A program made the position numbers and the translations under genes. A DNA stretch of 64,000 nt, taken from positions 1 through 64,000 of the IMG/VR virus record IMGVR_UViG_3300017971_000019; one strand, given 5' to 3'. Below the pieces are notes generated by a model. It saw nothing but the letters and a program-made list of their open reading frames with translations. It did no database searches and was not told the origin of the DNA. This DNA comes from a virus. Its lineage: Duplodnaviria > Heunggongvirae > Uroviricota > Caudoviricetes. Each line of letters opens with the position of its first letter. Within the stretch, counting starts at the first letter, position 1. Below, one piece after another: positions 1,645-28,374 of the stretch.

Positions 1645-1658
1645 AGCTCCCTCCCTTG

Positions 1659-1841: not shown

Positions 1842-1936
1842 TAGGACGCCTCCTTGCGCTCCTGTCGGAGCAGGAAAAGGATCCGACCAAACAGCTTCAC
1901 GTTCTTGTCTGCCTTGGTCATGTCAACCTCTCAGGT

Positions 1937-1960
1937 TTGAGGGGGGATTACTCCCCCCTC
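1937..1960. other. perfect GC hairpin GAGGGGGG-attac-TCCCCCCTC overlapping the stop codon of the 1948..2178 gene
   Basis: Inverted repeat with an 8-9 bp stem, read directly from the sequence. There is no T-tract after it on the minus strand. Confidence 0.4.
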
Positions 1961-2178: not shown

Positions 2179-2188
2179 CACTCCTCCT

Positions 2189-2503
2189 TTACGAACTGGC
2201 GAGGCCGAAGATGAGCCAGCCCTCGCTCCCGTCCTCGTTCTGGTACTTGAATGCCTCGGCGTCATCCCACTTGGAGTTGACCTCATCAGTGCCCATGCGG
2301 CGCTCTGCCTCCTGGACGGCCTCCTGCCGAGTGGGAAGCTCACCGTTCACGGTGAAGTGACGGCGCTGCACGCCGGTCTTCTCACCGATTGTCCCGGTGT
2401 ACCCGCCGTGCCCGTACTCCCAGCGGGCGTCCTCGACCGCGAGGGCGAACCCCCTGGTCAGCTTGGTCTCGTTGCTGTCAACGTAGAACTCCTGCGCTCC
2501 CAT
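2189..2503 (-). CDS. hypothetical protein (104 aa)
   Basis: ORF track. GAGGGGG ribosome-binding site. Amino-acid composition is protein-like. Confidence 0.55.
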   Translation of the reverse strand: MGAQEFYVDSNETKLTRGFALAVEDARWEYGHGGYTGTIGEKTGVQRRHFTVNGELPTRQEAVQEAERRMGTDEVNSKWDDAEAFKYQNEDGSEGWLIFGLASS

Positions 2504-10833: not shown

Positions 10834-11345
10834 TGGCGAAGAAGGGTCTCACTCCGAAGCAGAACCGGGCGCTCCTGGTGCTCGCGGCAGGCCAGACGCA
10901 AGAAGCAGCCGCGCAAGCAGCCGGCGTCCGACGACAGCGGGTCCAGGTGTGGATGAAGGAGCACGAGTTCCGCGAGGAACTACGGCTCTCCATGGAAAGA
11001 CTCCGTCACCAGTTCGAATCTCGGATCGTGGGACTCGCCAACAACGCAGCAGTGGTCGTCCAGGAGGCAATGGAACACCCAGACCTGGCGACGAGGATGG
11101 AGGCCGCAAAGACCGCCATCAACGCGGCTGTGCGAATGGCAACGCGGTACAAGGAGCTACAGGTGGAGGGATACGTTCCTCCTCCTACCCCCATGATCAT
11201 GCTCCCACCTGGGTCCAAGATGCCGTGGGAGAATGCAGCCGTATCAGTGACCACACCGCTTCCAGAAACCATCGACGTAGAGGCGACCGAGATTCCAGAA
11301 GAGCCAACGGATGAGCCAGGAACAAAACCAGGAACAGGCAGTTGA
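10833..11345 (+). CDS. putative terminase small subunit (HTH-containing, 170 aa)
   Basis: Sits immediately upstream of the large terminase subunit and overlaps it. Has an N-terminal helix-turn-helix-like segment (LTPKQNRALLVLAAGQTQEAAAQAAGV). ATGA coupling. Confidence 0.5.
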   Translation: MAKKGLTPKQNRALLVLAAGQTQEAAAQAAGVRRQRVQVWMKEHEFREELRLSMERLRHQFESRIVGLANNAAVVVQEAMEHPDLATRMEAAKTAINAAVRMATRYKELQVEGYVPPPTPMIMLPPGSKMPWENAAVSVTTPLPETIDVEATEIPEEPTDEPGTKPGTGS

Positions 11346-12966
11346 TACGACAGAAGCACCCGCGCCCTTCGAATACTCGTCAGATCTCCAGAAGCAGGCG
11401 GTAGAGCACCCACCGGGTAAGCCACTACTCCTCATCGGCGGGTTCAACAGCGGCAAGACCACGGCGGCAATCCTCCACATGTTGCTGCTGTGTGAGTCGT
11501 TTCCGGGCTACAAGGTCGCCGTCCTTCGTAAGACTTTCAAGGATCTTTCTCTTACAACCAGGCCCTCGTTCGACCAGTGGATCCGCCCCGACTTCATCGG
11601 GGAGCCGACCAACGAGAAGGTCGTCACCCTCAAGAATGGGTCAAGTTTCCTCTTTCATTACCTCGATAATCCGAACAGTGCCACCATTCTCAAGGGTCTC
11701 GAAATCAACGGGGCCATCCTCGACCAGGCGGAGCAGATGCAGGAGGCGACGTTCAAGATCCTCCTCGGTCGTCTCGGTCGTTGGAAGGGCGCGAAGGTTC
11801 CGGGCTGGGTCATGGACAGGAGAAATGGAGACTGGCCCTGGAAGGACAACGCTGGGCGTCCGGTTCCTCCGCTCAGCGTCATCCTCACAGCAAACCCAAT
11901 CGAAGAAGGCGACCCAGAGATGCACTGGCTCTGGCAACGCTTCTCGATGGAGTCCGAGACGGCCAGGCAGAAGTACTACCCGATGGGGTATCGGCAGATC
12001 GTCATGCCGACCACCACCAACAAGTTCGCTGGAGAGCAGAACATCGACATGCTGCTCCAGCAGGACGAGGACTACATCAAGCGGTTTGTGAAGGGTGAGT
12101 GGGTCAAGTCCAAGGGCCACCTCTTCAGGCTCGATGAGTCCTCCGTTCTGGAGTACACGCCGCAACTTGTCTCGCACATACAGAACAACATGCGCCTCGG
12201 GCGCGTGCTAGACCACGGAGACACCGCGCCTACGTGCTGCCTCTGGTACGGGGTGGACGAAGACAACAACATCTTCTTCTGGCAGGAGTACTACCAGAAG
12301 GGGATGACCGAAGGCGGGGAGTGGAACGTGTCCGACCACAGAAGGGCAATCACGCAGCTATCGATCCCGCTGACGTTCTCGATGAACCTGGCGGATCCGT
12401 CGATCTTCGATAAGACTCGCGGTATCACCGGCTACAACAAGCGCGAGAAGAGATGGTCAGTGGCCGATGAATATTCTGACGGCAGGATCATCACCGAGGA
12501 CACGAAGATCTACTGGAGGCCGGCGGACAACAACGAGATGCTTTCCAGGCAGAGGCTGCGTCAGTACCTCCAGGTGGACGCGAACCACCGCCACCCGCTC
12601 ACTGGTGAGCTTGGGGCCCCGCACATCTACTTCGTTTCGAGGGACCAGGACTGGGAGCACGGCTGCAACCACGCCATTCGCGAGATCAAGGCGGCGAAGC
12701 TTGAGGTGGTTGGTGAGAACGACGGAGCGCCGATCTACGGGAAGGATCGAGACGACCAGATCCCCGACCACGCACTCGACTGCATCCGCTATGTCGTGAA
12801 CAGCAGACCACTTCCCGCCTCTGAGCCTGCTGCTCCGAGGCAGCTAAAGGCGTATGCTAGAGAGGACGGTCGGGTCTTGGTCACGATTCCCCCCGTCACC
12901 GCTACCCCTCCTCCCGTGCGGCAGAGGCGTAGGGGCGAATGGAAGTCACGCGGCGGAGGCTACTGA
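11311..12966 (+). CDS. terL: terminase large subunit (551 aa)
   Basis: Walker A motif GGFNSGKT (nt 11437-11463) and a Walker B-like GAILDQAE. The size and the C-terminal acidic nuclease-like region fit. A portal-like gene follows. Confidence 0.85.
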   Translation: MSQEQNQEQAVDTTEAPAPFEYSSDLQKQAVEHPPGKPLLLIGGFNSGKTTAAILHMLLLCESFPGYKVAVLRKTFKDLSLTTRPSFDQWIRPDFIGEPTNEKVVTLKNGSSFLFHYLDNPNSATILKGLEINGAILDQAEQMQEATFKILLGRLGRWKGAKVPGWVMDRRNGDWPWKDNAGRPVPPLSVILTANPIEEGDPEMHWLWQRFSMESETARQKYYPMGYRQIVMPTTTNKFAGEQNIDMLLQQDEDYIKRFVKGEWVKSKGHLFRLDESSVLEYTPQLVSHIQNNMRLGRVLDHGDTAPTCCLWYGVDEDNNIFFWQEYYQKGMTEGGEWNVSDHRRAITQLSIPLTFSMNLADPSIFDKTRGITGYNKREKRWSVADEYSDGRIITEDTKIYWRPADNNEMLSRQRLRQYLQVDANHRHPLTGELGAPHIYFVSRDQDWEHGCNHAIREIKAAKLEVVGENDGAPIYGKDRDDQIPDHALDCIRYVVNSRPLPASEPAAPRQLKAYAREDGRVLVTIPPVTATPPPVRQRRRGEWKSRGGGY

Positions 12967-15143
12967 TGGGAAACGAAACACCGGGCCTAGATGAACTCAT
13001 GGATGTTGGGAACCTCTCCATGGGAGACGTTCCGAACGAGCCACAGGTCGGGACATCAGGGTCGGAAGCTCTCGACGCCAGAGACCGGGCGAAGGAAGAA
13101 GAGCGACAGAAGGCCGTGGTGCGTCGATGGTTCAAGCGCATCCGTGTCGCGAAGGAAGTGAAGAAGAAGTGGGAGCAGGACTACGAAGTCAATCGCGCCC
13201 ACGACTACGTACGAGGCTTCCAGAGAGCGAAGGACGACGAGCTAGACGCCCAGGGCGACAAGCGATACGTCATCAACAAAATCCTCGCGAACCTCAAGAC
13301 CAAGATCCCCTCGATCTTCTACTACCACCCGTACATCAGGGTGCGTCCAGCTATCGGTCGTGAGGATTCTCCCGGTCAGACTGTCTCCGGTCGCGCACTC
13401 CTCCTCCAGGACACCATCAACACGATCATCCGTCAGGACGAGACGCGCCTGAAGCCAGAGTGCATGGTTGCCCTGAAGGAGGCCCACTGGGCTTTCGGCA
13501 TCGTTGAGGGTGGCTATTCGGCAGAGTGGGCGGAGAATCCGTACGCGAAGAGGCCGCAACTGATCGAGAGCGAGACGGTCCAGGAGGAGAAGGAGCAGAC
13601 CGAGGAGATCCCCGAGTCGGACTCTCCAGAAGAGGAGATCTTCAACCAGCTAGAGTCCCTCCCGGTCCACGAGTCGTTCTACGTCCGCCACATCCCCGCC
13701 AGGCAGTTCTACGTGGCCACGAACGACCGCTCGCAGACCATCGCACAGGACTGGGTCGGCTACTGGGAGTGGATGTACGTGCGAGACGTGAAGCGCACCA
13801 AGTCGTTCGCGAACACCTCCGACCTCAAGGCCACAGCGAAGATGAGGGAAGAGGGCTACGACCGAGACCTGATGCCGATGGAGACCGCAGAGTCGCCATC
13901 CGACGTGCCGCCCGACATGGTCCGAGTCTGGAAGATCTGGGACCAGCGTGAGAAGAAGCGTCTCGTCCTGGTAGAGGGGCACGACTACCTCCTGAAGGAG
14001 GAGGAGTACGAGCACATCCCGCTCTACGACATCCGCCTAGAGGTCATGCCAGGCGAGTGGTATCCGATCCCGCCGATCTCGCAGCAGTTGATGGAGCAGG
14101 ACGAGTTCAACGACGCCCGCGAGTGGCTGCGCCTCGTGCGCAAGGGCACGCGCCCGCGCTACGTGTACGACAAGCAGGCGTTCACGTCGGACGAACTGGA
14201 GAAGTTCGAGACAGACGAGTTCGGCACGTTCGTCGGCGTCGAGAACGGCAACATGCAGCCGATCTCTCCGGTCCAGCAGCCGTCGTTCGGTGAGAGCGCC
14301 ATCCGTACGCTGTCTCTCTCCGAGCAGGGCTTCGCAGAGCAGGCGGCGACGAGCCCAATCGACCGCCTCACTCGCGGCGGAGGTGGAAAGCCGACAGCGA
14401 CAGAGGTCGGCGCCCTCAGCCAGGCGAGCGACGTGCGTCAGTCGTACGAGCAACAGGAGGTCGCAGACTGGCTCGCCAGGATCGCCTCTGGTCTGCTCAG
14501 GACAGCGGTGCAGCGCATGACCCTTCCTCAGTGGGTGCTCATGAACAGCGACCCGCACGCGCCGCAGCAGGCCCTCCTGGTAGACACGGCAGACATCGCG
14601 AAAGCACTCGACCAGATCCAGAACCCAGTCCCAGAGGACGTGCTCAGGGCAGCTATGGAGCTTCACAGCGCGGCCCTGATGAACCCGAAGGCTGCGATGG
14701 AGCGCGAGTACACCGAGCTTGCACCAGATGATCTGGAGACAGCGTTCGGTGACGGGCGCTGGGACATCACAGTCGATGTGGAGTCGATGTCTCCAGTCAC
14801 AGAGGCCCAGCACGCAGAGAAGCTGATGCAGGCTCTCAACATGCTCGCCAACCCAGGCGTAGGCAGGCTACTGTCCATGTCTCCACCGCTCCTGAAGAAC
14901 ATGCTCAACATGATGGGAATCAGGAACTCCGTCGATCAGCAGTCCATCATGCAGGCTCTACAGATGCGTGATCAGATGGAGCAGCAGATGGCGATGGCTC
15001 AGCAGGGTGGGGGTAGCCAGCCAGCCGAACCAGGCGTAGCGCCGATGGCCGGCGGAGGCCAGCCGAACGACGGGACCGGCGCTCCAGAGGGAGCACCACC
15101 AGACGCGCCACAACCAGCAGCACCACCACAAGCAGCGGGGTAG
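12966..15143 (+). CDS. putative portal protein (about 725 aa)
   Basis: Large gene directly downstream of terL, with an ATGA overlap and a GGCGGAGG ribosome-binding site. Has a Q/M/A/G/P-rich C-terminal tail. Called from position and size only. Confidence 0.55.
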   Translation: MGNETPGLDELMDVGNLSMGDVPNEPQVGTSGSEALDARDRAKEEERQKAVVRRWFKRIRVAKEVKKKWEQDYEVNRAHDYVRGFQRAKDDELDAQGDKRYVINKILANLKTKIPSIFYYHPYIRVRPAIGREDSPGQTVSGRALLLQDTINTIIRQDETRLKPECMVALKEAHWAFGIVEGGYSAEWAENPYAKRPQLIESETVQEEKEQTEEIPESDSPEEEIFNQLESLPVHESFYVRHIPARQFYVATNDRSQTIAQDWVGYWEWMYVRDVKRTKSFANTSDLKATAKMREEGYDRDLMPMETAESPSDVPPDMVRVWKIWDQREKKRLVLVEGHDYLLKEEEYEHIPLYDIRLEVMPGEWYPIPPISQQLMEQDEFNDAREWLRLVRKGTRPRYVYDKQAFTSDELEKFETDEFGTFVGVENGNMQPISPVQQPSFGESAIRTLSLSEQGFAEQAATSPIDRLTRGGGGKPTATEVGALSQASDVRQSYEQQEVADWLARIASGLLRTAVQRMTLPQWVLMNSDPHAPQQALLVDTADIAKALDQIQNPVPEDVLRAAMELHSAALMNPKAAMEREYTELAPDDLETAFGDGRWDITVDVESMSPVTEAQHAEKLMQALNMLANPGVGRLLSMSPPLLKNMLNMMGIRNSVDQQSIMQALQMRDQMEQQMAMAQQGGGSQPAEPGVAPMAGGGQPNDGTGAPEGAPPDAPQPAAPPQAAG

Positions 15144-15146: not shown

Positions 15147-15557
15147 ATGAGCGAAGAGAAGAAGTGCCCGAAGTGCGGCACGACCGAACTGGAGGATCCC
15201 AACGGGAAGTGGTCGCACTGTGAGAAGTGTTGCGCCACCGTCGGCATCGGAGCTTTTCCGTTCTGCAAGGGAGACCCTGACGATCATGGTCCGATGACGG
15301 GCTTCGATGACGCCTTCGAGCCCTACGTCGATGTCCAGTTGCTCGACAGGAAGGATCCTCGCTGCACGAGCACGAACGAGCTTGGAATACGAGGCGTTCC
15401 AATCGGGTCTCGCTCCGAGCGGCGCAGCCTGATGAAGGAGAAGGATCTCCAGTACGGAACCCAGAAGTTCGATGAGAAGCGCGGCAAGGTAATCTACGGC
15501 GGGGCCGCAACGTCCCCGTATCACAAAGGCGGGCCTGGGTTCAGGCGTCGAGACTGA
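15147..15557 (+). CDS. zinc-ribbon protein (136 aa; CPKCG...CEKCC)
   Basis: ORF track. ATG shortly after the portal stop. Confidence 0.55.
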   Translation: MSEEKKCPKCGTTELEDPNGKWSHCEKCCATVGIGAFPFCKGDPDDHGPMTGFDDAFEPYVDVQLLDRKDPRCTSTNELGIRGVPIGSRSERRSLMKEKDLQYGTQKFDEKRGKVIYGGAATSPYHKGGPGFRRRD

Positions 15558-15913
15558 TGTGGAAGACTGAGGACGGCTATGCGTTTGCTGTGGTGCGCCC
15601 TCATTGGAAGGTAAAGGTTAGGAGACAAGACATGGCCAAGGTAGGACAGTTCGAGTTCATCAACGACAACGGGGACCTTCTCGTCCTGGTTCGCGACAAG
15701 ACTCGCGGTGCGGAAGTGATCGCAGAGTGCAAGATCAAGGGCGACGACCTCGGGGAGTTCTTCGATGAGGTGTTCCCCCCTGACGAGAAGGCCATCGCGG
15801 AGGCCAACGAGCGCCTAGAGGTGCTCCTCGACCAGGCGGAAGAGGTGCTCGGCCTCGAAGACGAAGACGACGTTGACGAGCCGGACGACGACGAAGACGA
15901 CGAGGAGGAGTAA
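15557..15913 (+). CDS. hypothetical protein with a strongly acidic C-terminus (118 aa; alternative start 15632 with an AGGAG ribosome-binding site)
   Basis: ORF track. ATGA overlap with the upstream gene. Confidence 0.5.
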   Translation: MWKTEDGYAFAVVRPHWKVKVRRQDMAKVGQFEFINDNGDLLVLVRDKTRGAEVIAECKIKGDDLGEFFDEVFPPDEKAIAEANERLEVLLDQAEEVLGLEDEDDVDEPDDDEDDEEE

Positions 15914-15915: not shown

Positions 15916-16203
15916 ATGACAGGTGGAGTTCACACCATCGGGGCCACCGCTGCGAAGCTGGCCAACGACGACAACCCCTACACCAAGATCACGGTCAGGC
16001 TGAACCTCAGCGGGAACCAGACGTTCTTCGGGAACAGCGACGTGGCGAGTGACGGCACCAACGCGCACGGCTACCTAGTGGCGACGGCGACCTCTGGTGA
16101 GTCGTGGACGTTCGGGCCGTACCCGTCCGGGGCCGGCATCAAGCCGTCCGACCTCTACTTCGTTGGCACGGCAGGCGACAAGCTCTTCTGGACAGGCGAA
16201 TAG
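15916..16203 (+). CDS. small protein, paralog A of a duplicated family (95 aa)
   Basis: Its C-terminus (...WTFGPYPSGAGIKPSDLYFVGTAGDKLFWTGE) aligns with the product of 24199..24492. Confidence 0.6.
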   Translation: MTGGVHTIGATAAKLANDDNPYTKITVRLNLSGNQTFFGNSDVASDGTNAHGYLVATATSGESWTFGPYPSGAGIKPSDLYFVGTAGDKLFWTGE

Positions 16204-16216: not shown

Positions 16217-17701
16217 ATGCGCTGGGTAGTCCTTCTCCTTCTGGTCCTCTGGCCGCAGCACGGGACGACGCCAGGAACATCTCACGGAAAGCCTGGTGGC
16301 CCGCCAGAAGACATCACAGCGTCTACTACGTCGTCGTCAGTCTACGACTCTGCCACCGCGATCTGGTGCTTCAACGACAACACCGACCTCGGTGATGACT
16401 GTGCCAGTGATGAGGCCACCTACGACCTGACCCCGGTCAACACCCCAACGGCGACTGGCGGGGCTCTCGGATATGCCCTCGCCAACGATGGCACGGAGGG
16501 CAAGAGAGCCGCCGCCGCAGACTCAGCCACACTCTCTGCCGCCGGGGGGAGCTTCACTGCCTGCTTCTGGACCGTGAACGACAACCCCAACGACAACGAC
16601 TTCTACATCGGGAAGGACGACTGGGGCTCGCAGAGGGAATGGCACTTCAGGAACGATGGGCTCCAGCCTGCGATCTACTACAGCAGGAGCTGCAACAGCT
16701 TCGAGGACAGCGCTAGCACTGGCGTGAACCTCGTTGCTGGTGAGCGGAACTTCGTCTGTGGTTGGTATGACTCTTCCACCAAGAAGGGCACTGCATGGGT
16801 GAACGGGACGGAGGGCAACACCGGCTCCGCGATGGCGACCGACATGGGGGACTGCACCAGCGACTTCGTGGCGGGGGATGCCGAGACCGCAGGGTCTAAC
16901 CGAGACCCGATTGAGGGCACCGTGGGCCCGGTCTACTGGTGGAAGGGTGAGGTGGTGGCGGACGCCACCCTCGACCTGCTCTACAACTCTGGGAAGGGCA
17001 TGACCTGCGAGGACGCCGCAGCGGTGGACACCATGACCGCCTGCTGGGATCTTGACGAAGACCCATCAGGGGGTGCCGGGGCGTACAAGGACTCAGTCGG
17101 CTCTGAGGACATGTCCCCAGAGGGTACTCCTCTGCAAGTCGCTGGGCTGGTGGAGCGGAGTGACTCGGGGATGGGTGCAAACACCCCAACAGCGTCTGGA
17201 CAACGATTTACTATTGCCGATGCGGTGTGGAATTACCCCGGAACGGGTTCCTTTTCGTTCACCTTCTGGTTCAGCGCAGAGGATTTGCCTGCATCCACAT
17301 ACTTCATCCCGATCTCTAAGGGGAATGGGTGGGAGTATCAAGCCACAGCGGGGTATGGTGTTGATAGGATAAATTGTCAGTTCATTGACAATGGGCCAAA
17401 CACAATCACCGCAGGCCCAATTGACTACACCCCAGAAGAGTGGCACTTCGTTGCCTGTGTCCTCGATGCTACGACCGGGAAGGTCAAGATTTCCGTTGAT
17501 GGCTCGGACTTCACAGTCAGCGCAGCCACGTCAAACGGAACCATTCGAGACAGCACGCAAACCATCTCTATTGGAGCATCAAATACAACATTCAGCGGAG
17601 TGCTGGACAACGTAGCCTTTTTCAAAGGCACGGCTCTCACGCAGGAAGACGTGACAGCACTCTACGCCGCAGGCGAGGGCCTCTTCTACCCGGAGTCTTA
17701 G
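16217..17701 (+). CDS. protein with two tandem concanavalin-A/LamG-like domains and a signal-peptide-like N-terminus (494 aa)
   Basis: GGGAGG ribosome-binding site before the ATG at 16217. The N-terminus MRWVVLLLLVLWP is hydrophobic. Two blocks show LamG-type patterns (W.H.a.v.D...k.Y.DG; ...LDNVAFFKGTALTQEDV). Confidence 0.7.
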   Translation: MRWVVLLLLVLWPQHGTTPGTSHGKPGGPPEDITASTTSSSVYDSATAIWCFNDNTDLGDDCASDEATYDLTPVNTPTATGGALGYALANDGTEGKRAAAADSATLSAAGGSFTACFWTVNDNPNDNDFYIGKDDWGSQREWHFRNDGLQPAIYYSRSCNSFEDSASTGVNLVAGERNFVCGWYDSSTKKGTAWVNGTEGNTGSAMATDMGDCTSDFVAGDAETAGSNRDPIEGTVGPVYWWKGEVVADATLDLLYNSGKGMTCEDAAAVDTMTACWDLDEDPSGGAGAYKDSVGSEDMSPEGTPLQVAGLVERSDSGMGANTPTASGQRFTIADAVWNYPGTGSFSFTFWFSAEDLPASTYFIPISKGNGWEYQATAGYGVDRINCQFIDNGPNTITAGPIDYTPEEWHFVACVLDATTGKVKISVDGSDFTVSAATSNGTIRDSTQTISIGASNTTFSGVLDNVAFFKGTALTQEDVTALYAAGEGLFYPES

Positions 17702-17874
17702 TGAACTGCTGCATCTGCGGGAACCAGGACAACGCCGTAGAGTGGTGCTCGATCTGTGAGCACTTCTTCTGCGGCGGTTGCCGTTGGAGCCTGTTTCATC
17801 GTGGCCGAGACGCATTGAAGCAGTGGCTTCTGAAGAAGCCGCCGAAGCACTGTAATCACAAGGGGGAGAGATGA
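17701..17874 (+). CDS. small Cys-rich protein (57 aa, GTG start; CxxC x3)
   Basis: Reading frame is open. The start overlaps the upstream stop and the stop overlaps the downstream ATG. Confidence 0.35.
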   Translation: MNCCICGNQDNAVEWCSICEHFFCGGCRWSLFHRGRDALKQWLLKKPPKHCNHKGER

Positions 17875-19181
17875 TCGAAGTAAATCCACCAGCCGTAGCC
17901 CCAGACGAGGCCGATGATCGCCTAGAGAAGTACGCGACTCCTTTGCAGTGGACCTGGTACTTGAAGTGGGTCGAGCACGGATCGTACTCCGCAGCCGCAC
18001 GCGATGTCGGCGCGGACGGCACGACTCTTCGGCGTGGGATCCGCTCCATCTACAAGAAGGCTGCTCAGCAGGGCTACGCGCCCCACCACGGCCTTGTACA
18101 CGAGGTCCCCGAGGGAATGACCTCCAAGGGCACCTCAGTGCTCTACGACGGAGATGGTGAGGTCCAGGGGTACTGGAACAAGACCACGCGCCAGGGGAAG
18201 GAGCCGGACGAGGCAATCCAGCTTCCAGACGGCGTGGCCGTGAAGGTCTCCACCCTCTACGACAACGCTGGGAGGGTACAGCAGCAGTGGGTCCAGGAGA
18301 GGCCAGAAGACAGGGACCGCATCGAGATCTGGACCGAGATTGCGAAGGAGCTTGCCAAGAAGATTGAGCCCCTTCCGCAGATCTCCAGCCCTGGTCAGCA
18401 CATGGACTCTGACCTATTCGTGGGCTATCCGGTGAGCGACCTACATCTAGGGATGCTCTCGTGGGACAGGGAGACTGGGGACGACTGGGACATCAAGATC
18501 GGTGAGGAGATGCTCAACAAGTCCATCGCCTACCTTGTCTCTGCGGCGCCGAAGTCTGACGAGGCCCTCATCGCCTTCATGGGCGACTTCATGCACTACG
18601 ACTCGTTCGACACAGTGACGCCGACTCAGAGGAACCTCCTCGACGCGGACGGGCGCTACCCGAAGATGGTCCGAGCCGCAATCAGGGCGATGCGCAATAC
18701 CATCGAGGAAGTGGCGAAGAAGCACCGTGTGGTGAGGGTGATCATCGAGATCGGGAACCACGACCTGTCGTCCTCGATCTTCCTCGCGGAGGCGATGCAC
18801 GCTCTCTACGAGAACACTCCGCGCATCTTCATCGACACGAGCCCGATGCACTTCCACTACGCCGAGTACGGGAAGGTTCTCATCGGAACTCACCACGGGC
18901 ATGGTGTGAAGATGGACAAGCTCCCCGGCCTGATGGCATCTGATCAGCACGAGGCATGGGGGCGTACAGAGCACCGTGTGTGGTGGACAGGGCACATCCA
19001 CCACACCCAGATCCACGAGTTCCCAGGCTGCAACGTCGAGAGCTTCCGCGTTCTCGCTCCAAAGGACGCCTGGCACCACCAGCGCGGCTACCGCGCAGCC
19101 AGAGACCTGAAGGCCATCGTGTTCCACAAGGATTACGGTGAGGTCTCTAGGCTGACGGTGAACCCGGAGATGTTCAGGTAG
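17871..19181 (+). CDS. calcineurin-like metallophosphoesterase with an N-terminal domain of unknown function (436 aa)
   Basis: Metallophosphatase motifs GDFMHYD and IEIGNHD (GNHD/E), and a histidine-rich THHGHG...HIHH region. Confidence 0.7.
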   Translation: MIEVNPPAVAPDEADDRLEKYATPLQWTWYLKWVEHGSYSAAARDVGADGTTLRRGIRSIYKKAAQQGYAPHHGLVHEVPEGMTSKGTSVLYDGDGEVQGYWNKTTRQGKEPDEAIQLPDGVAVKVSTLYDNAGRVQQQWVQERPEDRDRIEIWTEIAKELAKKIEPLPQISSPGQHMDSDLFVGYPVSDLHLGMLSWDRETGDDWDIKIGEEMLNKSIAYLVSAAPKSDEALIAFMGDFMHYDSFDTVTPTQRNLLDADGRYPKMVRAAIRAMRNTIEEVAKKHRVVRVIIEIGNHDLSSSIFLAEAMHALYENTPRIFIDTSPMHFHYAEYGKVLIGTHHGHGVKMDKLPGLMASDQHEAWGRTEHRVWWTGHIHHTQIHEFPGCNVESFRVLAPKDAWHHQRGYRAARDLKAIVFHKDYGEVSRLTVNPEMFR

Positions 19182-19735
19182 TGGAACTCTTCCAACTCAT
19201 CGCCGGGTTCTTCCAGCACCTCACGTCCTGGCTTCCTCGTCCATTCCTCTTGAACGTGACAGAGCGTGGGGTGCTGTTCCGGCGCGGCCAGGAGCCAAGG
19301 CTCCTAGAGCCAGGATTCCATTGGCACATGCCGTTGATGTCCAGCTACGAGCGCATCAGCATCCTGAAGGACGCGACGGAGTTCGAGCCGGTGGTGCTAC
19401 CGACGGAAGACGGGAAGACCATAGCCATCGGGTTCGTGATCGTCTGGCACATCAGGCCGGACAACGTGATCAGGTCTGTGACCACTTCCGACGACATCAC
19501 GGCGATGGTAGGGGAGGTTGGGGAGAGCCTTCTCCCGCCCCTGGTCATGCAGTACAGCTTCAGCGAACTCCAGAAGAGGATCAGGGGAGGGAGGAACCTG
19601 ATCACCGTAAACGATTCCCTCACACAGTCTGCCCAGGATATGCTTGAGGAGTACGGGGTGACTGTGGATAGAGCACGAATCAACTTCCTGGCTCCAGCGA
19701 GGGTGCTCAAGCACATCAACAACCCTCTAATGTGA
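19181..19735 (+). CDS. SPFH/band-7 (stomatin/prohibitin-like) domain protein (184 aa, GTG start)
   Basis: Hydrophobic N-terminus followed by V.ERGVLFRRG..P..LEPGFHW..P....ISIL, a pattern typical of SPFH domains. Confidence 0.5.
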   Translation: MELFQLIAGFFQHLTSWLPRPFLLNVTERGVLFRRGQEPRLLEPGFHWHMPLMSSYERISILKDATEFEPVVLPTEDGKTIAIGFVIVWHIRPDNVIRSVTTSDDITAMVGEVGESLLPPLVMQYSFSELQKRIRGGRNLITVNDSLTQSAQDMLEEYGVTVDRARINFLAPARVLKHINNPLM

Positions 19736-21123: not shown

Positions 21124-22212
21124 ATGGGTATCGCAGAGGCCATCGCTGCCGAGTCCGACGAGACTCTAGGCACAAGTGAAGAGCCGGATGAGACCGGGAC
21201 GGATGTCGTCTCCGAAGACGACGACACCGTAGTCGAAGAGGACGACGACACCGTAGTCGAAGAAGACGACGACATCGAAGAGGACGACGACGACGAGGTA
21301 GACGACTGGGACACGGACCCGTCCGAGGACGAAGACGAAGAGGACGACGAGGACGACGAACAGAAGCTCGTCGCCCAGGAGGCTGAGGAGGAGGAGGGCT
21401 CCAACGTAGACCCGCTGGAGAACCTCACAGCAGAAGAGATCGCTGCGATCAACGCCAACCCTGCGCTGAAGAAGCTCAAGCGGGCGATCATGCGCGGGTA
21501 CAACGAGAGGGTCAAGCAGGACGCAGAGCTACTCCAGCTAGGCGCGGCCTACAAGAGCGACCCAGTTGGGACAGTGCAAACCCTCGCACGCGCCCACGGG
21601 ATGTCCATCCAGGAAGCGACAGAGATGGCTCAGGCCGGTGCTGCGGCGGCAGACCAACAGCAGGGCAGCGCTGGCAACGCCATGGAGCAAGCCGGGAAGG
21701 AACTCGAAGCCCTCTTCGGTGAGAAGATCGGCCCCCGTGTTCGTTCCGTCTTCGAGAGGTGGGCAGATGCTCGCTTCGGTGACGCGCTCCAGCCTGTGGA
21801 ACAGGTGGTTGGCCAACTCACAAGCACCCAGGAAGCTCAGCGCATGATGAGCGAGGAGCAGTCGTTCAAGGAGCGCCACAAGGATATCCTCACTCCAGAA
21901 CTGGAGCGGAAGGTCATCGAACTCGGCTCCAGCGGGATGATCGTGCCTGGCGAGAAGATGACCCCTGCCGAGTACCTCGACACCCTTCTCGACGTGGCCA
22001 TCGCGAGGAACGTGAAGTCGGAGGGTGCGAACGCCGGAAGGAACGCGGCGAGGAGGCTCGCGAAGAAGGTCAGGCGCAACCGTTCCGACCAGGAGCCATC
22101 TGGTGTATCCTCGAAGGCGAGGATGAGCAAGAAGTCACGCGTGAGCGAAGCGGGCAGCATCAGCGAGGCGCTCGACATCGCAGACGCAGAGCTTTCCGCA
22201 GAAAGCCTCTAG
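21124..22212 (+). CDS. putative scaffolding protein (362 aa; poly-acidic N-terminus followed by a helical region)
   Basis: Sits immediately upstream of the capsid gene. Has a long D/E run (EDDDTVVEEDDD...) and a coiled-coil-like remainder. Confidence 0.5.
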   Translation: MGIAEAIAAESDETLGTSEEPDETGTDVVSEDDDTVVEEDDDTVVEEDDDIEEDDDDEVDDWDTDPSEDEDEEDDEDDEQKLVAQEAEEEEGSNVDPLENLTAEEIAAINANPALKKLKRAIMRGYNERVKQDAELLQLGAAYKSDPVGTVQTLARAHGMSIQEATEMAQAGAAAADQQQGSAGNAMEQAGKELEALFGEKIGPRVRSVFERWADARFGDALQPVEQVVGQLTSTQEAQRMMSEEQSFKERHKDILTPELERKVIELGSSGMIVPGEKMTPAEYLDTLLDVAIARNVKSEGANAGRNAARRLAKKVRRNRSDQEPSGVSSKARMSKKSRVSEAGSISEALDIADAELSAESL

Positions 22213-22522: not shown

Positions 22523-23575
22523 ATGGCAGCAACAAGCATCACTCGCACGTACAACGCGAGGCTGACGGCGCTGCTCGACAAGATCCGCCCGGTCATCCAG
22601 AACCAGATCACCACCGCGAACCCGTTCTACTTCAAGTACAAGAAGTCCGGGAACTGGAAGACCGTTTCGACTCTTGGCGACCGCCTGCGCGTGCCTCTCA
22701 TGTACGAGTTCGCACCCGTGGACACCTTCGGCCCCAACGGCGTGGGCCAGGTGGACGTGACCCCAACCGATGGCCAGACTCCCGCCTTCTTCGAGTGGGC
22801 GCGTATGGCCTCCTCGATCACCATCGGTGACTTCGAGCGTGCCCAGAACAAGGGTGCCGCCCTCGATCTGCTCAAGAGCAAGACCGAGCAGGCGATGTCC
22901 GGTCTGGAAGATCGCTTCGGTCGCTGGCTGATGCAGGGTGAGGGCGCGAACGACACGTCCAGCATCACCACCGCTCGCACCAGCGCGGTCAACGGCTCGA
23001 CCTTTGTGGAGCCCATCCCGCTGATGATCAAGTACAGCCCCGCCACCACCTCGGTCGGATCCATCGACCCGGCATCCGAGACCTGGTGGAGGAACCAGGC
23101 GGTCTCGACCGCTTCCGGCACCTACGCGGCTCTGCTCAAGAACATCGACCACCTGATCAACCTCTGCTCCCAGAGCGCAGGACCCGGCCCCGACCTGTTC
23201 GTGGCCGACCTTCTGGGCTACGAGGTGATCTCGGCGGCTCTTCGTTCTCTCCAGCGTTTCGTGGACTACGAGGAAGTCTCCTTCCCGTGGAAGGCGATCC
23301 GCCTCAACGGCGCTCCGCTCTGCTTCGACCAGTTCGTTCCCGACGCACGGAACGGCAGCACCACGATCAGCACCGCTTCCACCCTGTACGCGGCCAACAC
23401 CAAGTACATGGGCGTGTCCGTGTACTCGGGCGCGGACTTCACCCCAGGCGAGTTCGTTCGTGCGCCGAACGGCACGGGCGAGACCTCGATCATCCAGTGG
23501 TACGGCGCCCACTGGATGAGCCGTCGTGACAAGCACGGCGTCCTCGGCATCAGCGACAACAGCATCACGAGCTAG
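22523..23575 (+). CDS. putative major capsid protein (350 aa)
   Basis: Has its own promoter, a GGAGGA ribosome-binding site and a terminator downstream. Follows the scaffold-like gene. Size is consistent with an HK97-fold coat protein. Confidence 0.6.
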   Translation: MAATSITRTYNARLTALLDKIRPVIQNQITTANPFYFKYKKSGNWKTVSTLGDRLRVPLMYEFAPVDTFGPNGVGQVDVTPTDGQTPAFFEWARMASSITIGDFERAQNKGAALDLLKSKTEQAMSGLEDRFGRWLMQGEGANDTSSITTARTSAVNGSTFVEPIPLMIKYSPATTSVGSIDPASETWWRNQAVSTASGTYAALLKNIDHLINLCSQSAGPGPDLFVADLLGYEVISAALRSLQRFVDYEEVSFPWKAIRLNGAPLCFDQFVPDARNGSTTISTASTLYAANTKYMGVSVYSGADFTPGEFVRAPNGTGETSIIQWYGAHWMSRRDKHGVLGISDNSITS

Positions 23576-24110: not shown

Positions 24111-24153
24111 TCACGGCTACAAGAGGGCTTTCCGAAGGCCCAGTGGGGGTTCC

Positions 24154-24176
24154 GGCCCCTGCTGGGCCTTTCTTCG
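24154..24176 (+). terminator. intrinsic terminator-like hairpin GGCCCC-tgct-GGGCC followed by TTTCTTCG, with a TGcTAAAAT extended -10-like box at 24181-24189
   Basis: Read directly. The T-tract is imperfect. Confidence 0.5.
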
Positions 24177-24198
24177 TCCGTGCTAAAATGGCGGTGTT

Positions 24199-24492
24199 AT
24201 GAGCCTATCGAGTTCGGTCCAGGGTCACATGATCACGCTGGGAGTGGCTAGGACGGCACTCTCGACAAGCAATGTCCCCTGCCGGCAGATCACCATCCGA
24301 GCCCACGAAGGTACAGACGAGATGAGCATCGGGCTATCCGACGTGGATCCGGCAACCAGGTTCGGGTTCGTCTCTGATGGTGAGGCCTTCACCATCGGTC
24401 CCTTCAACGATGGCAGAGGGCTCAGGCCCAACGAGGTCTTCGTGGTCGGGACCGTTGGTGACAGGCTTACCTGGTTCGGGGAGAACGCATGA
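24199..24492 (+). CDS. small protein, paralog B of a duplicated family (97 aa)
   Basis: Its C-terminus (...FTIGPFNDGRGLRPNEVFVVGTVGDRLTWFGE) aligns with the product of 15916..16203. Confidence 0.6.
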   Translation: MSLSSSVQGHMITLGVARTALSTSNVPCRQITIRAHEGTDEMSIGLSDVDPATRFGFVSDGEAFTIGPFNDGRGLRPNEVFVVGTVGDRLTWFGENA

Positions 24493-26378
24493 GCCAGTAC
24501 TCGACCCACCCAAAGAAGATCAAGATCCACGACGATGACGGCGATGTCCTGGAGATCAACGCCGACGGGACCATTGGAGTCGTTGTCCCGGACACGACGA
24601 AGGTTAAGGTCTGGGACGGGACAGACGAGCTAGCAGTCAACACTGACGGCTCGATCACCACGCAGCTTCTCAGCAAGATCTGCACGAACAACTCGACCGA
24701 TACCCCGCTCCTGGCCAACGCCACGTTCACCGGCACAGCGGGAGAGATGAACGGGTACGCTTCCATCCTGATCACGGTCTACACGGACGTGGCGAGCGCA
24801 ACTGATGGGCTTTCTATCCAGTTCTCTCACACGGACAGCCCGTACGACTGGCACGAGTCTGACGCTTACACAATCGCTGCGGGTGCGTACAAGACCTTCA
24901 CGCTCCAGCCGGTGGATGCCTACTTCAGGATCGTCTACACGAACGGCGGAAGCGACCAGACTGCATTCCACATCAACGTCCAGCTTCACTCGGTAGCGCC
25001 GAAGGCATCCTCGCACAGGATGGAGGACGACATCAGCGGGCAGGACGATGCCCAGTTGGTGAAGTCGATCCTCGCGGCAGAGAGACCGGGAACTGCGGGA
25101 ATCTACACGAACATCCAGGCGACGAACGGTGGGAACCTGAAGGTGAGCGTGGAGGAGTTTGACGGACTCCAGACTAATCCAGACGGAAATCAGATCGTTC
25201 AGATCAGCGACAACAACCTCGATGCTTTCTCGCGCATGAGGGTCTCGCTGCCGATTGCGCTCTTCGACTCATCTTTCCGCTACGACCTGGACCCGCTCAT
25301 TTTTGAGACAAGCACGGCCAACGGAGGGAGTGTTACTCATGCGCCCGCGAGGGCTGCTGCCGCTCTTGCTTTGGATGGAACTGCCGGTGGAAGTGCCATC
25401 ATTCAGTCCAAGGAGTACATGCAGTATGTTCCGGGCAGGAGCCAGCTTATCCTGATCACTGGGCTGATTGGTGCTGGCAACGGGAACCAGAAGCGCGTCG
25501 GCTACTTTGACGCCAACAACGGCATCTACTTCGAGCAAGACACGGACGACTCTATCAAGATCGTCAGGAGGACTGACACCTCTGGGTCGCCAGTCAATAA
25601 TGAAGTGGAGCAGGCGAACTGGAACCTAGACACTCTGGACGGAAATGGATTTAGCGGAATAACTCTAGACCCGACGAAGGTCTACATCCTGGTCATCGAC
25701 CTTCAGTGGCTCGGGATGGGGCGCGTCCGAGTGGGCTTCGACATCAACGGAGAGATCGTGTGGGCTCATGAGTTCCTGAATGCCAATGTCCTCACAACGG
25801 TCTACATGAGAACTGGCTCTCTTCCAGTTCGTTGGGAGCACACTGGAGACAATGCAGACAGCATGGATGCTGTGTGCTCAGCCGTCCTCTCAGAGTCTGG
25901 TAACGATTCCCAGCTTAGCTATCACTTCTCCGGTAATGTGGGAGAGATCAGTGCAGGAACAAGCGCTACCTACGCGGGGGCGATCAGGCCCGCCGCCACG
26001 TTCAACTCCATCACGAACAGGACTCACATTCAGCTTGAGAGCGCTGGGCTCACCGTCACCGGCAACTATGCGGTGAGGCTGGAGATCTACTACGGTGGAA
26101 CTATCGGTGGGAGCCCTTCTTGGACAGCAGCGAACGCTTCTTCTGCCCTTGAGGTGGACGTTGCGGGCACCCCGTCCGGTGGTGTGAAGATTGACGAGTT
26201 CGTTGTTGGGGCGACCTCAAGGGCATCAAGCTCTTTGGAGGCAAGCGTGTCTCACCGCTTCCCCCTCTGCCTCGACATTGCAGGAACGGGCTACAACCTC
26301 ATCTACGCGACTGTTACATCTCTGGGCGTTTCATCTAGCGACTGCTACCCAGACTTCAAGTGGAACGAGTATAGGTAG
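24489..26378 (+). CDS. large virion structural protein (629 aa), function unknown
   Basis: ATGA overlap with paralog B. Composition is beta-rich with many Thr/Ser/Gly. Confidence 0.65.
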   Translation: MSQYSTHPKKIKIHDDDGDVLEINADGTIGVVVPDTTKVKVWDGTDELAVNTDGSITTQLLSKICTNNSTDTPLLANATFTGTAGEMNGYASILITVYTDVASATDGLSIQFSHTDSPYDWHESDAYTIAAGAYKTFTLQPVDAYFRIVYTNGGSDQTAFHINVQLHSVAPKASSHRMEDDISGQDDAQLVKSILAAERPGTAGIYTNIQATNGGNLKVSVEEFDGLQTNPDGNQIVQISDNNLDAFSRMRVSLPIALFDSSFRYDLDPLIFETSTANGGSVTHAPARAAAALALDGTAGGSAIIQSKEYMQYVPGRSQLILITGLIGAGNGNQKRVGYFDANNGIYFEQDTDDSIKIVRRTDTSGSPVNNEVEQANWNLDTLDGNGFSGITLDPTKVYILVIDLQWLGMGRVRVGFDINGEIVWAHEFLNANVLTTVYMRTGSLPVRWEHTGDNADSMDAVCSAVLSESGNDSQLSYHFSGNVGEISAGTSATYAGAIRPAATFNSITNRTHIQLESAGLTVTGNYAVRLEIYYGGTIGGSPSWTAANASSALEVDVAGTPSGGVKIDEFVVGATSRASSSLEASVSHRFPLCLDIAGTGYNLIYATVTSLGVSSSDCYPDFKWNEYR

Positions 26379-26401
26379 TTTTGAAAACGGGAGAGAGACC
26401 G

Positions 26402-27817
26402 ATGAAGCAGAAGTGCCTCATGCTGGGGGCGGGGTCTGCTCCGCCGAAGAGGAAGCTGACGGACCCCCAGTTCTCGGCTTCCGAGGAAGAGACCGAGTGG
26501 GTCACCCTCGACATCATGGAGAGGAATAAGCCGGACATCCTCTTCGATCTGAACTGGATCGAGAGGACCGACATGACCGTAGCCACGCACGGGCTGCGCG
26601 ATGGATACCTCTGCAATCAGATCCCAGTCCCAGACGAGACATTCGATGAGATCCACGCCTACGAGGTGATGGAGCACTACGGGAAGCAGGGGGACTGGGA
26701 GGGGTTCTTCCAGGGGATGAAGGAACTCTGGCGCATCCTGAAGCCTGGGGGGATGCTCATCGGGACCGTTCCGAAGTACACGTCCGAGTGGGCATGGGGA
26801 GATCCTGGTCACACGAGGGTGATCACAAAGGGGACGCTCTCCTTCCTGATGAAGGCGTCGTACGAGAACAAGTCGAGCAACGAGCCGAGGACGGACTACC
26901 AGGACTACGTCGATCCGTGCTGGTGGGAGCCGAGGCATGGGGCTGACCTGGGGGAGCACTACAGCTTTGGGATCAGGAAGCCTATCGGTGAACTCAGCCT
27001 TCAGATCGAGACTGGCTCGACGTGCAACGCCGCTTGCAACTTCTGCGTCTACCCGGAGGCAGCGAAGGAGCGCAGCGGGAAAAAGATGCGACGGCACACG
27101 TTCGAGGACATCATCGACGATGCGGAAGTCCTGGGTGTTGGCAAGGTGGTACTGAACGGACTGAACGAGCCGCTCCTGGACCCGGACCTAGAGTCGAAGA
27201 TCGAGTACGTCAGGGCCAAGATGCCGAGGGCATTCATCGAGATCTACTCCAACGGGCTCCTGATGACGCCACGTAGGTTCGACTCGCTGGCGGATGCAGG
27301 GCTCTCCGGGGTGGTCTTCAGTCTCAATGCAGTGACCCCGAGGCAGCACGAAGAGATCATGGGCATGAAGGGGAAGTTCGACCTCATCGAAGGTCACATC
27401 GACTACGCCCGCGAGAACAAGAAGGGCGTCACGGTTGAGGTTCATGCCGTGATGAACCCCGACTACTTCGACCACTCGGACGAGATGAGCTTCTACCACA
27501 GGTGGGGGCACTACAACGAGCCGAATGGGGTCGGCGCTGTCATCCGCGAGGGGAACTGGGCGAACGAACTTGACGCGATCAAGAAGTTCTCCCCGAATGA
27601 GAAGTGCGGAAGGGCCACCAACCAGATGTACATCACGTACGACGGGAGAGTCACGACGTGCTGCTTCGACCCGTTCGGACGCCAGGTCTTCGGGAACGTC
27701 GAGAAAGAATCCCTGAAGGTGATCCGCGACTCCGAAGAGTACGTGGCGTTCAGGAAGGCCCACGAAGAGGACCGCGCAGACGAGTACGACATCTGCCGCA
27801 ACTGCACGAGAATCTGA
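26402..27817 (+). CDS. fusion protein: N-terminal class-I SAM methyltransferase plus C-terminal radical-SAM enzyme with a SPASM/twitch-like domain (about 471 aa)
   Basis: GGGAGAGAG ribosome-binding site. Methyltransferase motifs LMLGAGSA and LKPGGML. Radical-SAM cluster motif CNAACNFC (nt 27023-27046). C-terminal Cys-rich region TTCCFDPFG...GNVEKESLKVIRDS...ICRNC. Confidence 0.75.
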   Translation: MKQKCLMLGAGSAPPKRKLTDPQFSASEEETEWVTLDIMERNKPDILFDLNWIERTDMTVATHGLRDGYLCNQIPVPDETFDEIHAYEVMEHYGKQGDWEGFFQGMKELWRILKPGGMLIGTVPKYTSEWAWGDPGHTRVITKGTLSFLMKASYENKSSNEPRTDYQDYVDPCWWEPRHGADLGEHYSFGIRKPIGELSLQIETGSTCNAACNFCVYPEAAKERSGKKMRRHTFEDIIDDAEVLGVGKVVLNGLNEPLLDPDLESKIEYVRAKMPRAFIEIYSNGLLMTPRRFDSLADAGLSGVVFSLNAVTPRQHEEIMGMKGKFDLIEGHIDYARENKKGVTVEVHAVMNPDYFDHSDEMSFYHRWGHYNEPNGVGAVIREGNWANELDAIKKFSPNEKCGRATNQMYITYDGRVTTCCFDPFGRQVFGNVEKESLKVIRDSEEYVAFRKAHEEDRADEYDICRNCTRI

Positions 27818-28374
27818 TGGGCATCATCGAGCAGTACGCGACAGGCAACAAGCTGAACATCGGGTGTGGCACAGACTGTCGAGACGGCTGGGTGAACGTG
27901 GACTTCCACGGCGCTGTTGGGTCGGACTATCAGTTCGACCTCAGGAGCAGGTGGTCGCTGTTCCAGAACAGCACCTTCGACACGGTGCTGGCCTCGCACG
28001 TCCTAGAGCACTTCTCTGGGCCGGACCTGTTCCACGTCATGTTCGAAGCCGGTCGCGTTCTGCGACCAGGCGGGCGGCTCCTCGGAATCGTCCCATATGC
28101 AACGAGCGAGATCTTCTACGCCAACCCGTTCCACAAGCAGGCGTGGACGGAGAGAACTCCGATGCAGTTTGACCGGCGGCTCTATCATTCCGGCGGCGGG
28201 CCATCGTCCCTGCACGCAGACCAGGGAATGAAGCTTCAGCCGTGGGACGTGGAGTGTGTGTATCTTAGGCCGGCGGAGGGGTGGGAGGACGAGCCCGACA
28301 TCCAGGCGGCAGCGAGGAAGTACCTCAACGTGATTGACGAGATGCACTTCGTCATGAAGCTGGTGGAGGAGTAA
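27817..28374 (+). CDS. class-I SAM-dependent methyltransferase (185 aa)
   Basis: ATGA overlap with the upstream gene. Motifs LNIGCGTDC, VLASHVLEH and LRPGGRLLGIVP. Confidence 0.7.
   Translation: MGIIEQYATGNKLNIGCGTDCRDGWVNVDFHGAVGSDYQFDLRSRWSLFQNSTFDTVLASHVLEHFSGPDLFHVMFEAGRVLRPGGRLLGIVPYATSEIFYANPFHKQAWTERTPMQFDRRLYHSGGGPSSLHADQGMKLQPWDVECVYLRPAEGWEDEPDIQAAARKYLNVIDEMHFVMKLVEE

What the first reader, a model, noticed from the sequence alone, without database searches (positions are those of the whole stretch)
15916..16203. Duplicated small gene family, each copy directly preceding a large carbohydrate-binding-like protein
The 95-aa product of 15916..16203 and the 97-aa product of 24199..24492 share a clearly alignable C-terminal half (W/FT(F/I)GP(Y/F)...G...(P/K)(S/N)(D/E)...(F/V)VGT(A/V)GD(K/R)L(F/T)W(T/F)GE).

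Each sits immediately 5' of, and is coupled to, a large beta-rich protein: the tandem LamG protein at 16217 and the 629-aa protein at 24489 respectively. This suggests a cognate adaptor, chaperone or anchor pairing, perhaps one that attaches appendages to the capsid or tail.
Basis: seen in the sequence. Interest (0 to 1): 0.55.

Follow-up and report, generated by a model that had tools for sequence, protein, structure and literature searches.

The report
Duplicated small jelly-roll gene beside lectin-like genes
Two diverged copies of a ~95-residue, uncatalogued phage protein with a small jelly-roll fold each sit tightly coupled in front of a large lectin-fold protein, and relatives repeat this pairing, so it is probably a small partner plus sugar-binding appendage module, though its role is unproven.

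Summary
The products of 15916..16203 (95 aa, "A") and 24199..24492 (97 aa, "B") are true paralogues: 33% identity over their full length, and 0 of 5000 shuffles reach the observed score. There is no third copy in the window.

They belong to a family of about 120 standalone proteins of roughly 85-130 aa from environmental phage contigs. Pfam, PHROGs, NCBIfam and PDB sequences do not contain it. AlphaFold models A with pLDDT 96.6 as a single small jelly-roll.

In related phages the small gene holds two conserved positions: after portal-p136, and after capsid protein-p161. It abuts LamG-type, 629-type or other large variable proteins, with gaps of -22 to +16 nt. LamG lies on either side of it.

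The link is not obligatory. Seventy-nine of 80 other 629-type loci lack the small gene. Distant members sit beside portals without a large neighbour, and some carry signal peptides.

My preferred reading is a small structural partner or anchor for variable glycan-binding appendages, at about 0.35 confidence. Nothing tested here establishes the function.

The parts
15916..16203 (+). Small jelly-roll protein, copy A (95 aa, pI about 5.1, no Cys). It occupies the post-portal position: portal, p136, p118, then A.
16217..17701 (+). Partner of A: a 494-aa protein with two Laminin_G_3 (ConA-like lectin) domains, a hydrophobic N-terminus (MRWVVLLLLVLW) and a glycine/proline-rich HGKPG motif.
   Evidence: Pfam PF13385 E 1.4e-20, two stretches. 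phrog_18503 and phrog_3475. RBS GGGAGG and a 13-nt gap after A. N-terminal hydropathy, and a shared (F/Y/H)G(K/R)PG motif with LamG partners in other loci.
24134..24181 (+). Intrinsic-terminator-like hairpin (17-bp stem, then CTTCGTC after a TTT at the end of the stem). It lies between the p161 gene and copy B.
   Evidence: It accounts for both + strand terminator-like sites (overlapping) found in 15-27 kb. RNA fold of the 24108-24200 intergenic segment containing it -44.8 kcal/mol, z -3.7, and 0 of 200 shuffles fold as well.
24199..24492 (+). Small jelly-roll protein, copy B (97 aa, pI about 4.9). It occupies the post-capsid position: major capsid protein, p161, then B.
   Evidence: ORF and translation. 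Paralogy with A. B-type orthologues sit directly after p161 homologues in L008, L009-11, L019 and L020.
24489..26378 (+). Partner of B: a 629-aa all-beta protein. Residues 1-60 are low-confidence and look fibre-like. Residues 62-170 form a small beta-sandwich. Residues 250-629 have the ConA-like/GH16-like fold (phrog_1645 'virion structural protein').

Best explanation
A and B are two anciently diverged paralogues of an uncatalogued family of about 95-aa single-domain jelly-roll proteins of tailed phages.

In this phage lineage each copy forms a tightly coupled two-gene unit with a large, variable protein of the concanavalin-A-like lectin/glucanase fold. A is paired with a double-LamG protein. 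B is paired with a protein that has a fibre-like N-terminus and a GH16-like, non-catalytic domain.

My preferred mechanism is inferred, not shown. The small protein is the conserved structural partner: a base, anchor or adaptor subunit that is made together with the glycan-binding accessory protein and mounts it on the particle, probably on the head or neck. On this view the small protein keeps the virion-facing contact, and the large lectin-like protein is free to be swapped.

Shown here:
- the paralogy;
- the fold;
- the existence and spread of the family;
- recurrent adjacency with tight junctions;
- conservation of both positions in relatives;
- the lectin fold of both partners.

Inferred:
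- physical interaction between the small and large proteins;
- presence in the virion;
- the anchoring role.
For: Paralogy.

Family: 39 standalone small hits in an exhaustive HMMER search and 80 in the word-indexed search. None has a name or a Pfam domain.

Both positions are occupied in relatives, so the duplication predates their divergence. L009/L010 carry an A-position copy and a B-position copy.

Adjacency:
- The small gene is followed by LamG in the window, L003, L005-7, L014, L015 and L017.
- LamG lies immediately upstream of it in L016 and L009/L010. The two stay neighbours even when the order flips.
- A B-like copy with a phrog_1645 partner occurs at the post-portal position in L021. 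That suggests the pair moves as a unit.
- L017 has two copies, each in front of its own large protein.

Junctions run from -22 to +16 nt in 12 of 12 cases. Only 28% of plus-strand ORF calls in the window are 230 aa or longer.

The downstream partners differ completely between phages whose capsid proteins are very similar (phmmer E about 1e-195). This is the pattern expected for swappable surface proteins behind a conserved partner.

A strong terminator-like hairpin precedes B. If it functions as a terminator, B and the 629-aa protein would be made in lower copy number than the capsid lattice proteins.
Against: No interaction or virion-association data exist, and no co-fold could be run.

The 629-type domain occurs in 79 of 80 other viral loci, in L129, in S-RIM8 and in HMO-2011 without any family member nearby.

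Small-gene copies also exist without a large neighbour of their own. L018a has none (it is followed only by another small copy); L016a is followed by another copy and has only the upstream LamG. L023 has an M15 peptidase next. L024 and L027 have small genes next. The P22-like loci place the gene between terminase and portal. The Edaphobacter prophage places it next to SSB.

A distant branch carries Sec-type signal peptides. The LamG partners of the window and of L003 start with signal-peptide-like hydrophobic segments. That is unexpected for proteins assembled onto virions in the cytoplasm.

The genes between portal and scaffold also include clearly non-structural functions, namely an exonuclease-like phosphoesterase and an SPFH protein. 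Position alone therefore does not prove a structural role.

The loci are phylogenetically related, so the adjacency counts are not independent events.
Confidence: 0.35

Rival explanations
1. The small jelly-roll protein is an independent conserved virion component, for example a capsid cement or decoration subunit or a portal-vertex accessory subunit. The large genes next to it are unrelated cargo, inserted at recombination-permissive slots just downstream of conserved genes.
For: The small gene keeps its position relative to portal-p136 and to capsid protein-p161, while the downstream genes are unrelated between close relatives.

Distant members sit next to portal genes with no large partner.

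Against: LamG stays adjacent to the small gene in either gene order.

A B-like copy travels with a phrog_1645 partner to a different genomic position in L021.

Copy number tends to track the number of large neighbours (window, L017).

All 12 junctions are very tight.

A terminator-like hairpin separates B from the highly expressed capsid genes. p161, not B, occupies the classical decoration-gene slot directly after the capsid gene.
Confidence: 0.25
2. The small protein is a non-structural assembly chaperone. It helps the beta-rich lectin or fibre-like neighbour to fold or oligomerise and is not part of the virion.
For: The gene pair is translationally coupled. The partners are large all-beta proteins, and the 629-aa partner has a low-confidence, fibre-like N-terminus that probably needs oligomerisation. 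From my own knowledge, dedicated fibre chaperones are common in phages.
Against: Homologous 629-type domains nearly always exist without it.

It sits upstream of its neighbour. From my own knowledge, known fibre-assembly proteins (Tfa, gp38) are usually encoded downstream.

No chaperone family matches in Pfam, PHROGs or NCBIfam.

Copies persist without an adjacent client.

Some relatives carry signal peptides.
Confidence: 0.15
3. The module is not a virion part. It acts at the host envelope during infection or lysogeny, for example as a secreted or membrane-anchored glycan-binding protein with a small partner, used for exclusion, surface modification or lysis-related functions.
For: At least eight distant family members have classical Sec signal peptides, and two have a hydrophobic helix after an N-terminal extension.

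The L003 LamG partner has a textbook signal peptide (…ATPAWA|QHG), and the window's LamG starts MRWVVLLLLVLW.

The large neighbours in L043 and in the Edaphobacter prophage also begin with signal-like segments.

Against: A and B themselves have no signal peptide.

Five of seven LamG partners, the 629-aa protein and the L021 402-aa partner lack one.

phrog_1645 members are annotated as virion structural proteins in cyanophages and HMO-2011.

The genes lie inside the head-morphogenesis block and are co-oriented with it.
Confidence: 0.15

Closest known systems
[not shown]
   Same: A conserved small beta-sandwich partner is encoded next to a variable lectin-fold protein. The genes are tightly linked. 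The variable partner is replaced between close relatives.
   Different: There is no sequence relationship to any of these. The genes lie in the head-morphogenesis block (after the portal and after the capsid gene), about 10-19 kb upstream of the SU10-like adaptor and tail genes. No interaction has been shown. The small gene also occurs alone.
Jelly-roll capsid cement proteins of podophages (epsilon15 gp10, BPP-1 cement protein). From my own knowledge; gp10 is listed as a predicted beta-jellyroll in PMC7602432.
   Same: It is a small, roughly 100-aa protein with a jelly-roll fold, encoded near the major capsid protein gene in a short-tailed-type phage.
   Different: No sequence similarity to any PDB chain. 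B is separated from the capsid gene by p161 and a terminator-like hairpin. A second copy sits near the portal. Both copies are coupled to large lectin-like genes.
Bacillus endospore appendage (Ena) subunits: about 110-aa jelly-roll proteins that polymerise into fibres.
   Different: The hit is far below the Pfam threshold and is found in 1 of 40 members. From my own knowledge, Ena fibres use an N-terminal connector with cysteines; A has none and B has one. The biological context is different.
PM2 spike protein P1 (PDB 2vve), the best structural neighbour.
   Different: Only 9% identity. P1 is a 335-aa multidomain vertex protein of a membrane-containing tailless phage. Similarity at this level is shared with many cupins, so it does not indicate homology.

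Membership tests
   A and B each score about 115 bits against the family HMM. The motifs are visible in alignments A2/A3.
Cupin superfamily (metal-binding double-stranded beta-helix enzymes) | Conserved His/Glu metal-binding motifs on the barrel | tested here: not met
   [not shown]
Endospore appendage proteins (Pfam PF13157 Enas / DUF3992 Ena) | Sequence match above the Pfam gathering threshold | tested here: not met
   [not shown]
Phage tail-fibre assembly chaperones (Tfa/gp38-type) | Match to a known chaperone family, and a gene located downstream of the fibre gene | tested here: not met
   No hit in Pfam, PHROGs or NCBIfam. The gene lies upstream of the large neighbour in the window.
Capsid decoration or cement proteins | Physical binding to the capsid lattice at defined symmetry sites | not testable with these tools
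   This needs cryo-EM or proteomics. Indirect points: no PDB sequence match; B lies two genes after the capsid gene and behind a terminator-like hairpin.
Concanavalin A-like lectin/glucanase superfamily (for the two large partners) | Laminin_G_3 profile match, or a ConA-like beta-sandwich fold | tested here: met
   [not shown]
Glycoside hydrolase family 16 (for the 629-aa partner) | Catalytic E-x-D-x(1,2)-E motif on the concave sheet | tested here: not met
   A regular-expression search finds no such motif in the 629-aa or the 494-aa protein. The invariant columns of the 56-sequence alignment contain no acidic pair of this kind. It is more likely a lectin-like domain than an enzyme.
PHROG 1645 'virion structural protein' (for the 629-aa partner) | Profile match over most of the model | tested here: met
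   E 2.6e-77; residues 234-593 match profile positions 41-405 of 440. tblastn hits to S-RIM8 and HMO-2011 gp65.

The most novel reading that the evidence does not exclude
The small jelly-roll protein is a self-assembling building block. Like Ena spore-appendage subunits or viral spike jelly-rolls, it stacks or rings into a short stalk on the head or neck. Interchangeable lectin-fold heads plug into that stalk. This would be a previously undescribed, modular system for displaying glycan-binding proteins on phage particles, and it has been duplicated within one genome to display two different lectins. In distant relatives the same block has been re-used as a secreted protein.
Probability: 0.1. 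Interest if true: 0.65.

Novelty: new variant of a known kind. Interest (0 to 1): 0.42.

Why it matters
If the small protein is the docking partner for exchangeable lectin-like proteins, it defines a new, easily recognised marker gene. That marker would help locate accessory host- or glycan-binding proteins in uncultured phages, where such proteins are hard to find by sequence. It would also offer a compact two-gene module for displaying binding domains on phage particles.

It also adds a well-supported family to the catalogue: a confident fold, about 120 members, and no entry in Pfam, PHROGs or NCBIfam.

If instead it is a stand-alone head protein or an envelope-directed factor, the finding is an ordinary uncharacterised phage family with interesting synteny.

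Tried and rejected
**Searches for a known family**
- Sequence searches of A and B against Pfam, PHROGs and NCBIfam gave nothing meaningful. Big_1 at E 0.055 and phrog_24894 at E 0.078 were rejected as noise.
- PDB sequences, searched with the family profile, gave nothing.
- tblastn of B, P0049 and P0106 against 50,697 phage records gave no hit for B or P0106. P0049 gave only a weak hit to a 93-aa ORF right after the portal of Streptomyces phage phiScoe10. hhalign probability for that ORF is 45%, so I kept it as a lead, not a member.

**Spurious hits in the exhaustive search**
- Five long hits (P0014, P0024, P0028, P0029, P0041) are repeat proteins that accumulate score. I rejected them as spurious.

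**Other proteins tested as hidden family members**
- The 108-aa gene upstream of the S-RIM8 phrog_1645 gene and HMO-2011 gp66 are not members.
- p161, p118 and the 80-aa protein of L009 are not related.

**Whole-cassette duplication**
- I tested whether the two large partners are sequence homologues. hhalign probability is 0.1%, so only the fold class is shared.

- Broad family alignments (A3, A4) were too diverse for the search for related loci, so I used sub-alignments instead.
- The afdb50 fold library was unavailable.
- Co-folding of the pairs was not possible.
- A literature search for DUF6385 found no papers. Searches on podophage GP4 and SU10 found nothing describing this small protein.

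Full report
**1. The observation**

The window carries a co-oriented phage late-gene block. In order, it contains:
- large terminase, 11311..12966;
- portal, 12939..15143 (PHROG 332/12082);
- p136, a zinc-ribbon-like protein;
- p118, which has an acidic tail;
- small protein A, 15916..16203;
- a 494-aa protein, 16217..17701;
- a Cys-rich 57-aa protein;
- an Mre11/SbcD-like phosphoesterase;
- an SPFH protein;
- p346 and p106;
- a scaffold-like protein;
- major capsid protein, 22523..23575 (PHROG 9953);
- p161;
- small protein B, 24199..24492;
- a 629-aa protein, 24489..26378.

A and B align end to end at 33% identity with E 5e-18. The score lies 24.8 standard deviations above shuffled controls, and 0 of 5000 shuffles reach it. 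No third copy exists in any frame of the window.

A's stop lies 13 nt before the next ATG, which has a GGGAGG ribosome-binding site. B's stop overlaps the next ATG.

**2. What the small protein is**

A word-indexed search of 5.8 billion proteins found only the two proteins themselves. An exhaustive HMMER search of 1.84 billion cluster representatives found 44 hits. Thirty-nine of these are standalone proteins of 66-107 aa. The other five are repeat proteins and are spurious. Re-searching with the 40-sequence alignment gave 80 members. All are 86-131 aa except two of about 179 aa, and none has a name or a Pfam domain. Pfam, PHROGs, NCBIfam and PDB sequence searches are empty.

- several viral capsid and turret jelly-rolls.

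Foldseek against predicted viral structures returns dozens of uncharacterised phage proteins of 85-110 aa.

No His/Glu set is conserved, so it is not a cupin enzyme. The fold is common and does not by itself assign a function.

**3. Synteny in relatives**

I fetched loci by exact-protein look-up and by pattern scans. I mapped them with the family HMM and with the window's own proteins. In the clade that shares the window's terminase, portal and capsid proteins, the small gene occupies two conserved positions.

*Position 1: portal, p136, sometimes another small gene, then the small gene.*
- It is followed by a LamG-type protein in the window, L003, L005-7, L015 and L017. L014 has the same small-gene-then-LamG pair, but there the upstream gene is an unidentified 325-aa ORF, so its position is not assigned.
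- In L016 a double-LamG protein lies immediately upstream of two tandem small genes (Pfam E 9e-21).
- In L009/L010 the truncated ORF just upstream of the small gene is homologous to that LamG protein.
- LamG and the small gene therefore remain neighbours in either order.
- In L021 the post-portal copy resembles B more than A. It is followed by a 402-aa phrog_1645 protein, the same family as the C-terminal part of the window's 629-aa protein. Next comes a homologue of podophage GP4 fiber I protein gp80.

*Position 2: capsid protein, p161, then the small gene.*
The next gene is different in each phage:
- the 629-aa protein in the window;
- 80 aa then 803 aa in L009;
- 79 aa then 937 aa in L019;
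- about 750-790 aa, with a tail-collar-fibre motif, in L020;
- a fibre-like fragment in L008.

These downstream proteins are unrelated to each other, even though the capsid proteins match at about E 1e-195.

L009/L010 carry copies at both positions. The duplication therefore predates the divergence of these phages. All twelve junctions I measured between the small gene and its neighbour are -22 to +16 nt.

**4. What the partners are**

The 494-aa protein has two Laminin_G_3 domains.

For the 629-aa protein I collected 498 homologues and modelled it with 56 of them. The model has pLDDT 83.4. The N-terminal 60 residues and the 171-245 linker are uncertain, and the rest is confident and all-beta.

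They show no sequence homology to each other. I can claim duplication of the small gene only, not of a whole cassette.

**5. Limits of the pairing**

I ran the reverse test. Of 80 IMG/VR loci with the best 629-type homologues, plus L129, only one has a family member within 4 kb, and it is the same contig as L021. S-RIM8 and HMO-2011 also lack it.

More distant family members lie in several other settings:
- right after SU10-like portal genes with only small neighbours (L024, L027);
- between a methyltransferase and an M15 peptidase (L023);
- between terminase and portal in P22-like phages (L026, L030, L032-36);
- next to SSB in an Edaphobacter prophage (L028);
- in some lineages, again in front of very large proteins (L039, L041, L043).

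At least eight distant members carry classical signal peptides. The LamG partner in L003 has a textbook signal peptide, and the window's LamG begins with a hydrophobic segment. Five other LamG partners have none.

**6. Interpretation**

The data support a real, recurrent gene module in this clade and an ancient duplication. They do not establish function.

I favour a small structural partner or anchor for exchangeable lectin-fold appendages (0.35), for these reasons:
- adjacency survives order flips and relocation;
- the junctions are tight;
- the partners are hypervariable lectin-fold proteins;
- B lies behind a strong terminator-like hairpin after the capsid genes, which, if functional, would suit a low-copy component.

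The rivals are an independent head or portal-vertex protein next to insertion slots (0.25), an assembly chaperone (0.15) and an envelope-directed, non-virion function suggested by the signal peptides (0.15).

The SU10-like adaptor at 34641..35717 shows that the tail module starts about 10 kb further on. If the module is structural, it is more likely associated with the head or neck than with the tail tip.

**7. Novelty and score**

The family is uncatalogued, and its fold is confidently predicted. The arrangement of a small jelly-roll gene with a lectin-fold gene, duplicated within one genome, has no described counterpart that I could find.

Small partner proteins for exchangeable phage surface proteins are a known kind of thing, and the fold is common. 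I rate it a new variant of a known kind, with interest 0.42.

Noticed in passing
window 47590..62067 (+): A single ORF of 4825 aa closes the late-gene block, after proteins of 660, 1237, 858 and 608 aa. It is a giant virion-type protein of unknown role; an ejection protein or a fibre are guesses.
   Followed up: no
window 26381..27817 and 27820..28374 (+): Directly after the 629-aa gene comes a fusion of a methyltransferase domain with radical-SAM and SPASM domains, followed by a second methyltransferase. These are unusual enzymes to find between capsid and tail genes. In L023 a methyltransferase also sits immediately upstream of a family member.
   Followed up: partly
window 17871..19181 and 19181..19735 (+): An Mre11/SbcD-like phosphoesterase (phrog_704, E 3.5e-114) and an SPFH/Band-7 protein lie between the portal and scaffold genes, inside the head-morphogenesis block. 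This arrangement is conserved in relatives (L009, L016, L020).
   Followed up: partly
window 15147..15557 (+) and orthologues in L003, L005-7, L016-18, L021: A Cys-rich, zinc-ribbon-like protein of about 115-136 aa (p136) always follows the portal gene in this clade. It has no family assignment.
   Followed up: no
L018 1656..4157; L023 299..2290: The large terminase of L018 carries an insertion of about 260 aa relative to the window's orthologue (query 11-493 and 490-551 map to 16-498 and 762-823). The 663-aa L023 ORF at 299..2290 (function not checked here) has a weak Intein_splicing hit. These are probably inteins.
   Followed up: no
Proteins P0068, P0076, P0077, P0080, P0084, P0091, P0092, P0100; P0101 and P0107; loci L030, L032-36: A distant branch of the small-protein family has Sec-type signal peptides, or an N-terminal extension followed by a hydrophobic helix. 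In P22-like phages it is encoded between terminase and portal.
   Followed up: partly
window 34641..35717 (+): A SU10_adaptor-like protein (PF24175, E 4e-8) marks the start of the tail module. More distant family-bearing phages (L023, L024, L027) have weak SU10_portal hits on their portals. This links the lineage loosely to Kuravirus-type podophages.
   Followed up: partly
window 29825..30244 and 33365..33973 (+): Two separate cell-wall enzymes, a phage lysozyme (PF00959) and a Hydrolase_2 cell-wall hydrolase (PF07486), lie between the capsid and tail modules.
   Followed up: no
L025 (Streptomyces phage phiScoe10) 5001..5282: A 93-aa hypothetical gene directly after the portal gene shows weak similarity to the N-terminal half of the family (hhalign probability 45%, E 2e-4). 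It may be a remote relative in a cultured siphophage.
   Followed up: partly
window 15870..15913 and 21200..21420 (+): There are long acidic low-complexity runs: the p118 C-terminus reads DEDDVDEPDDDEDDEEE, and the N-terminal third of the scaffold-like protein is similar. Spurious long antisense ORFs overlap them.
   Followed up: no
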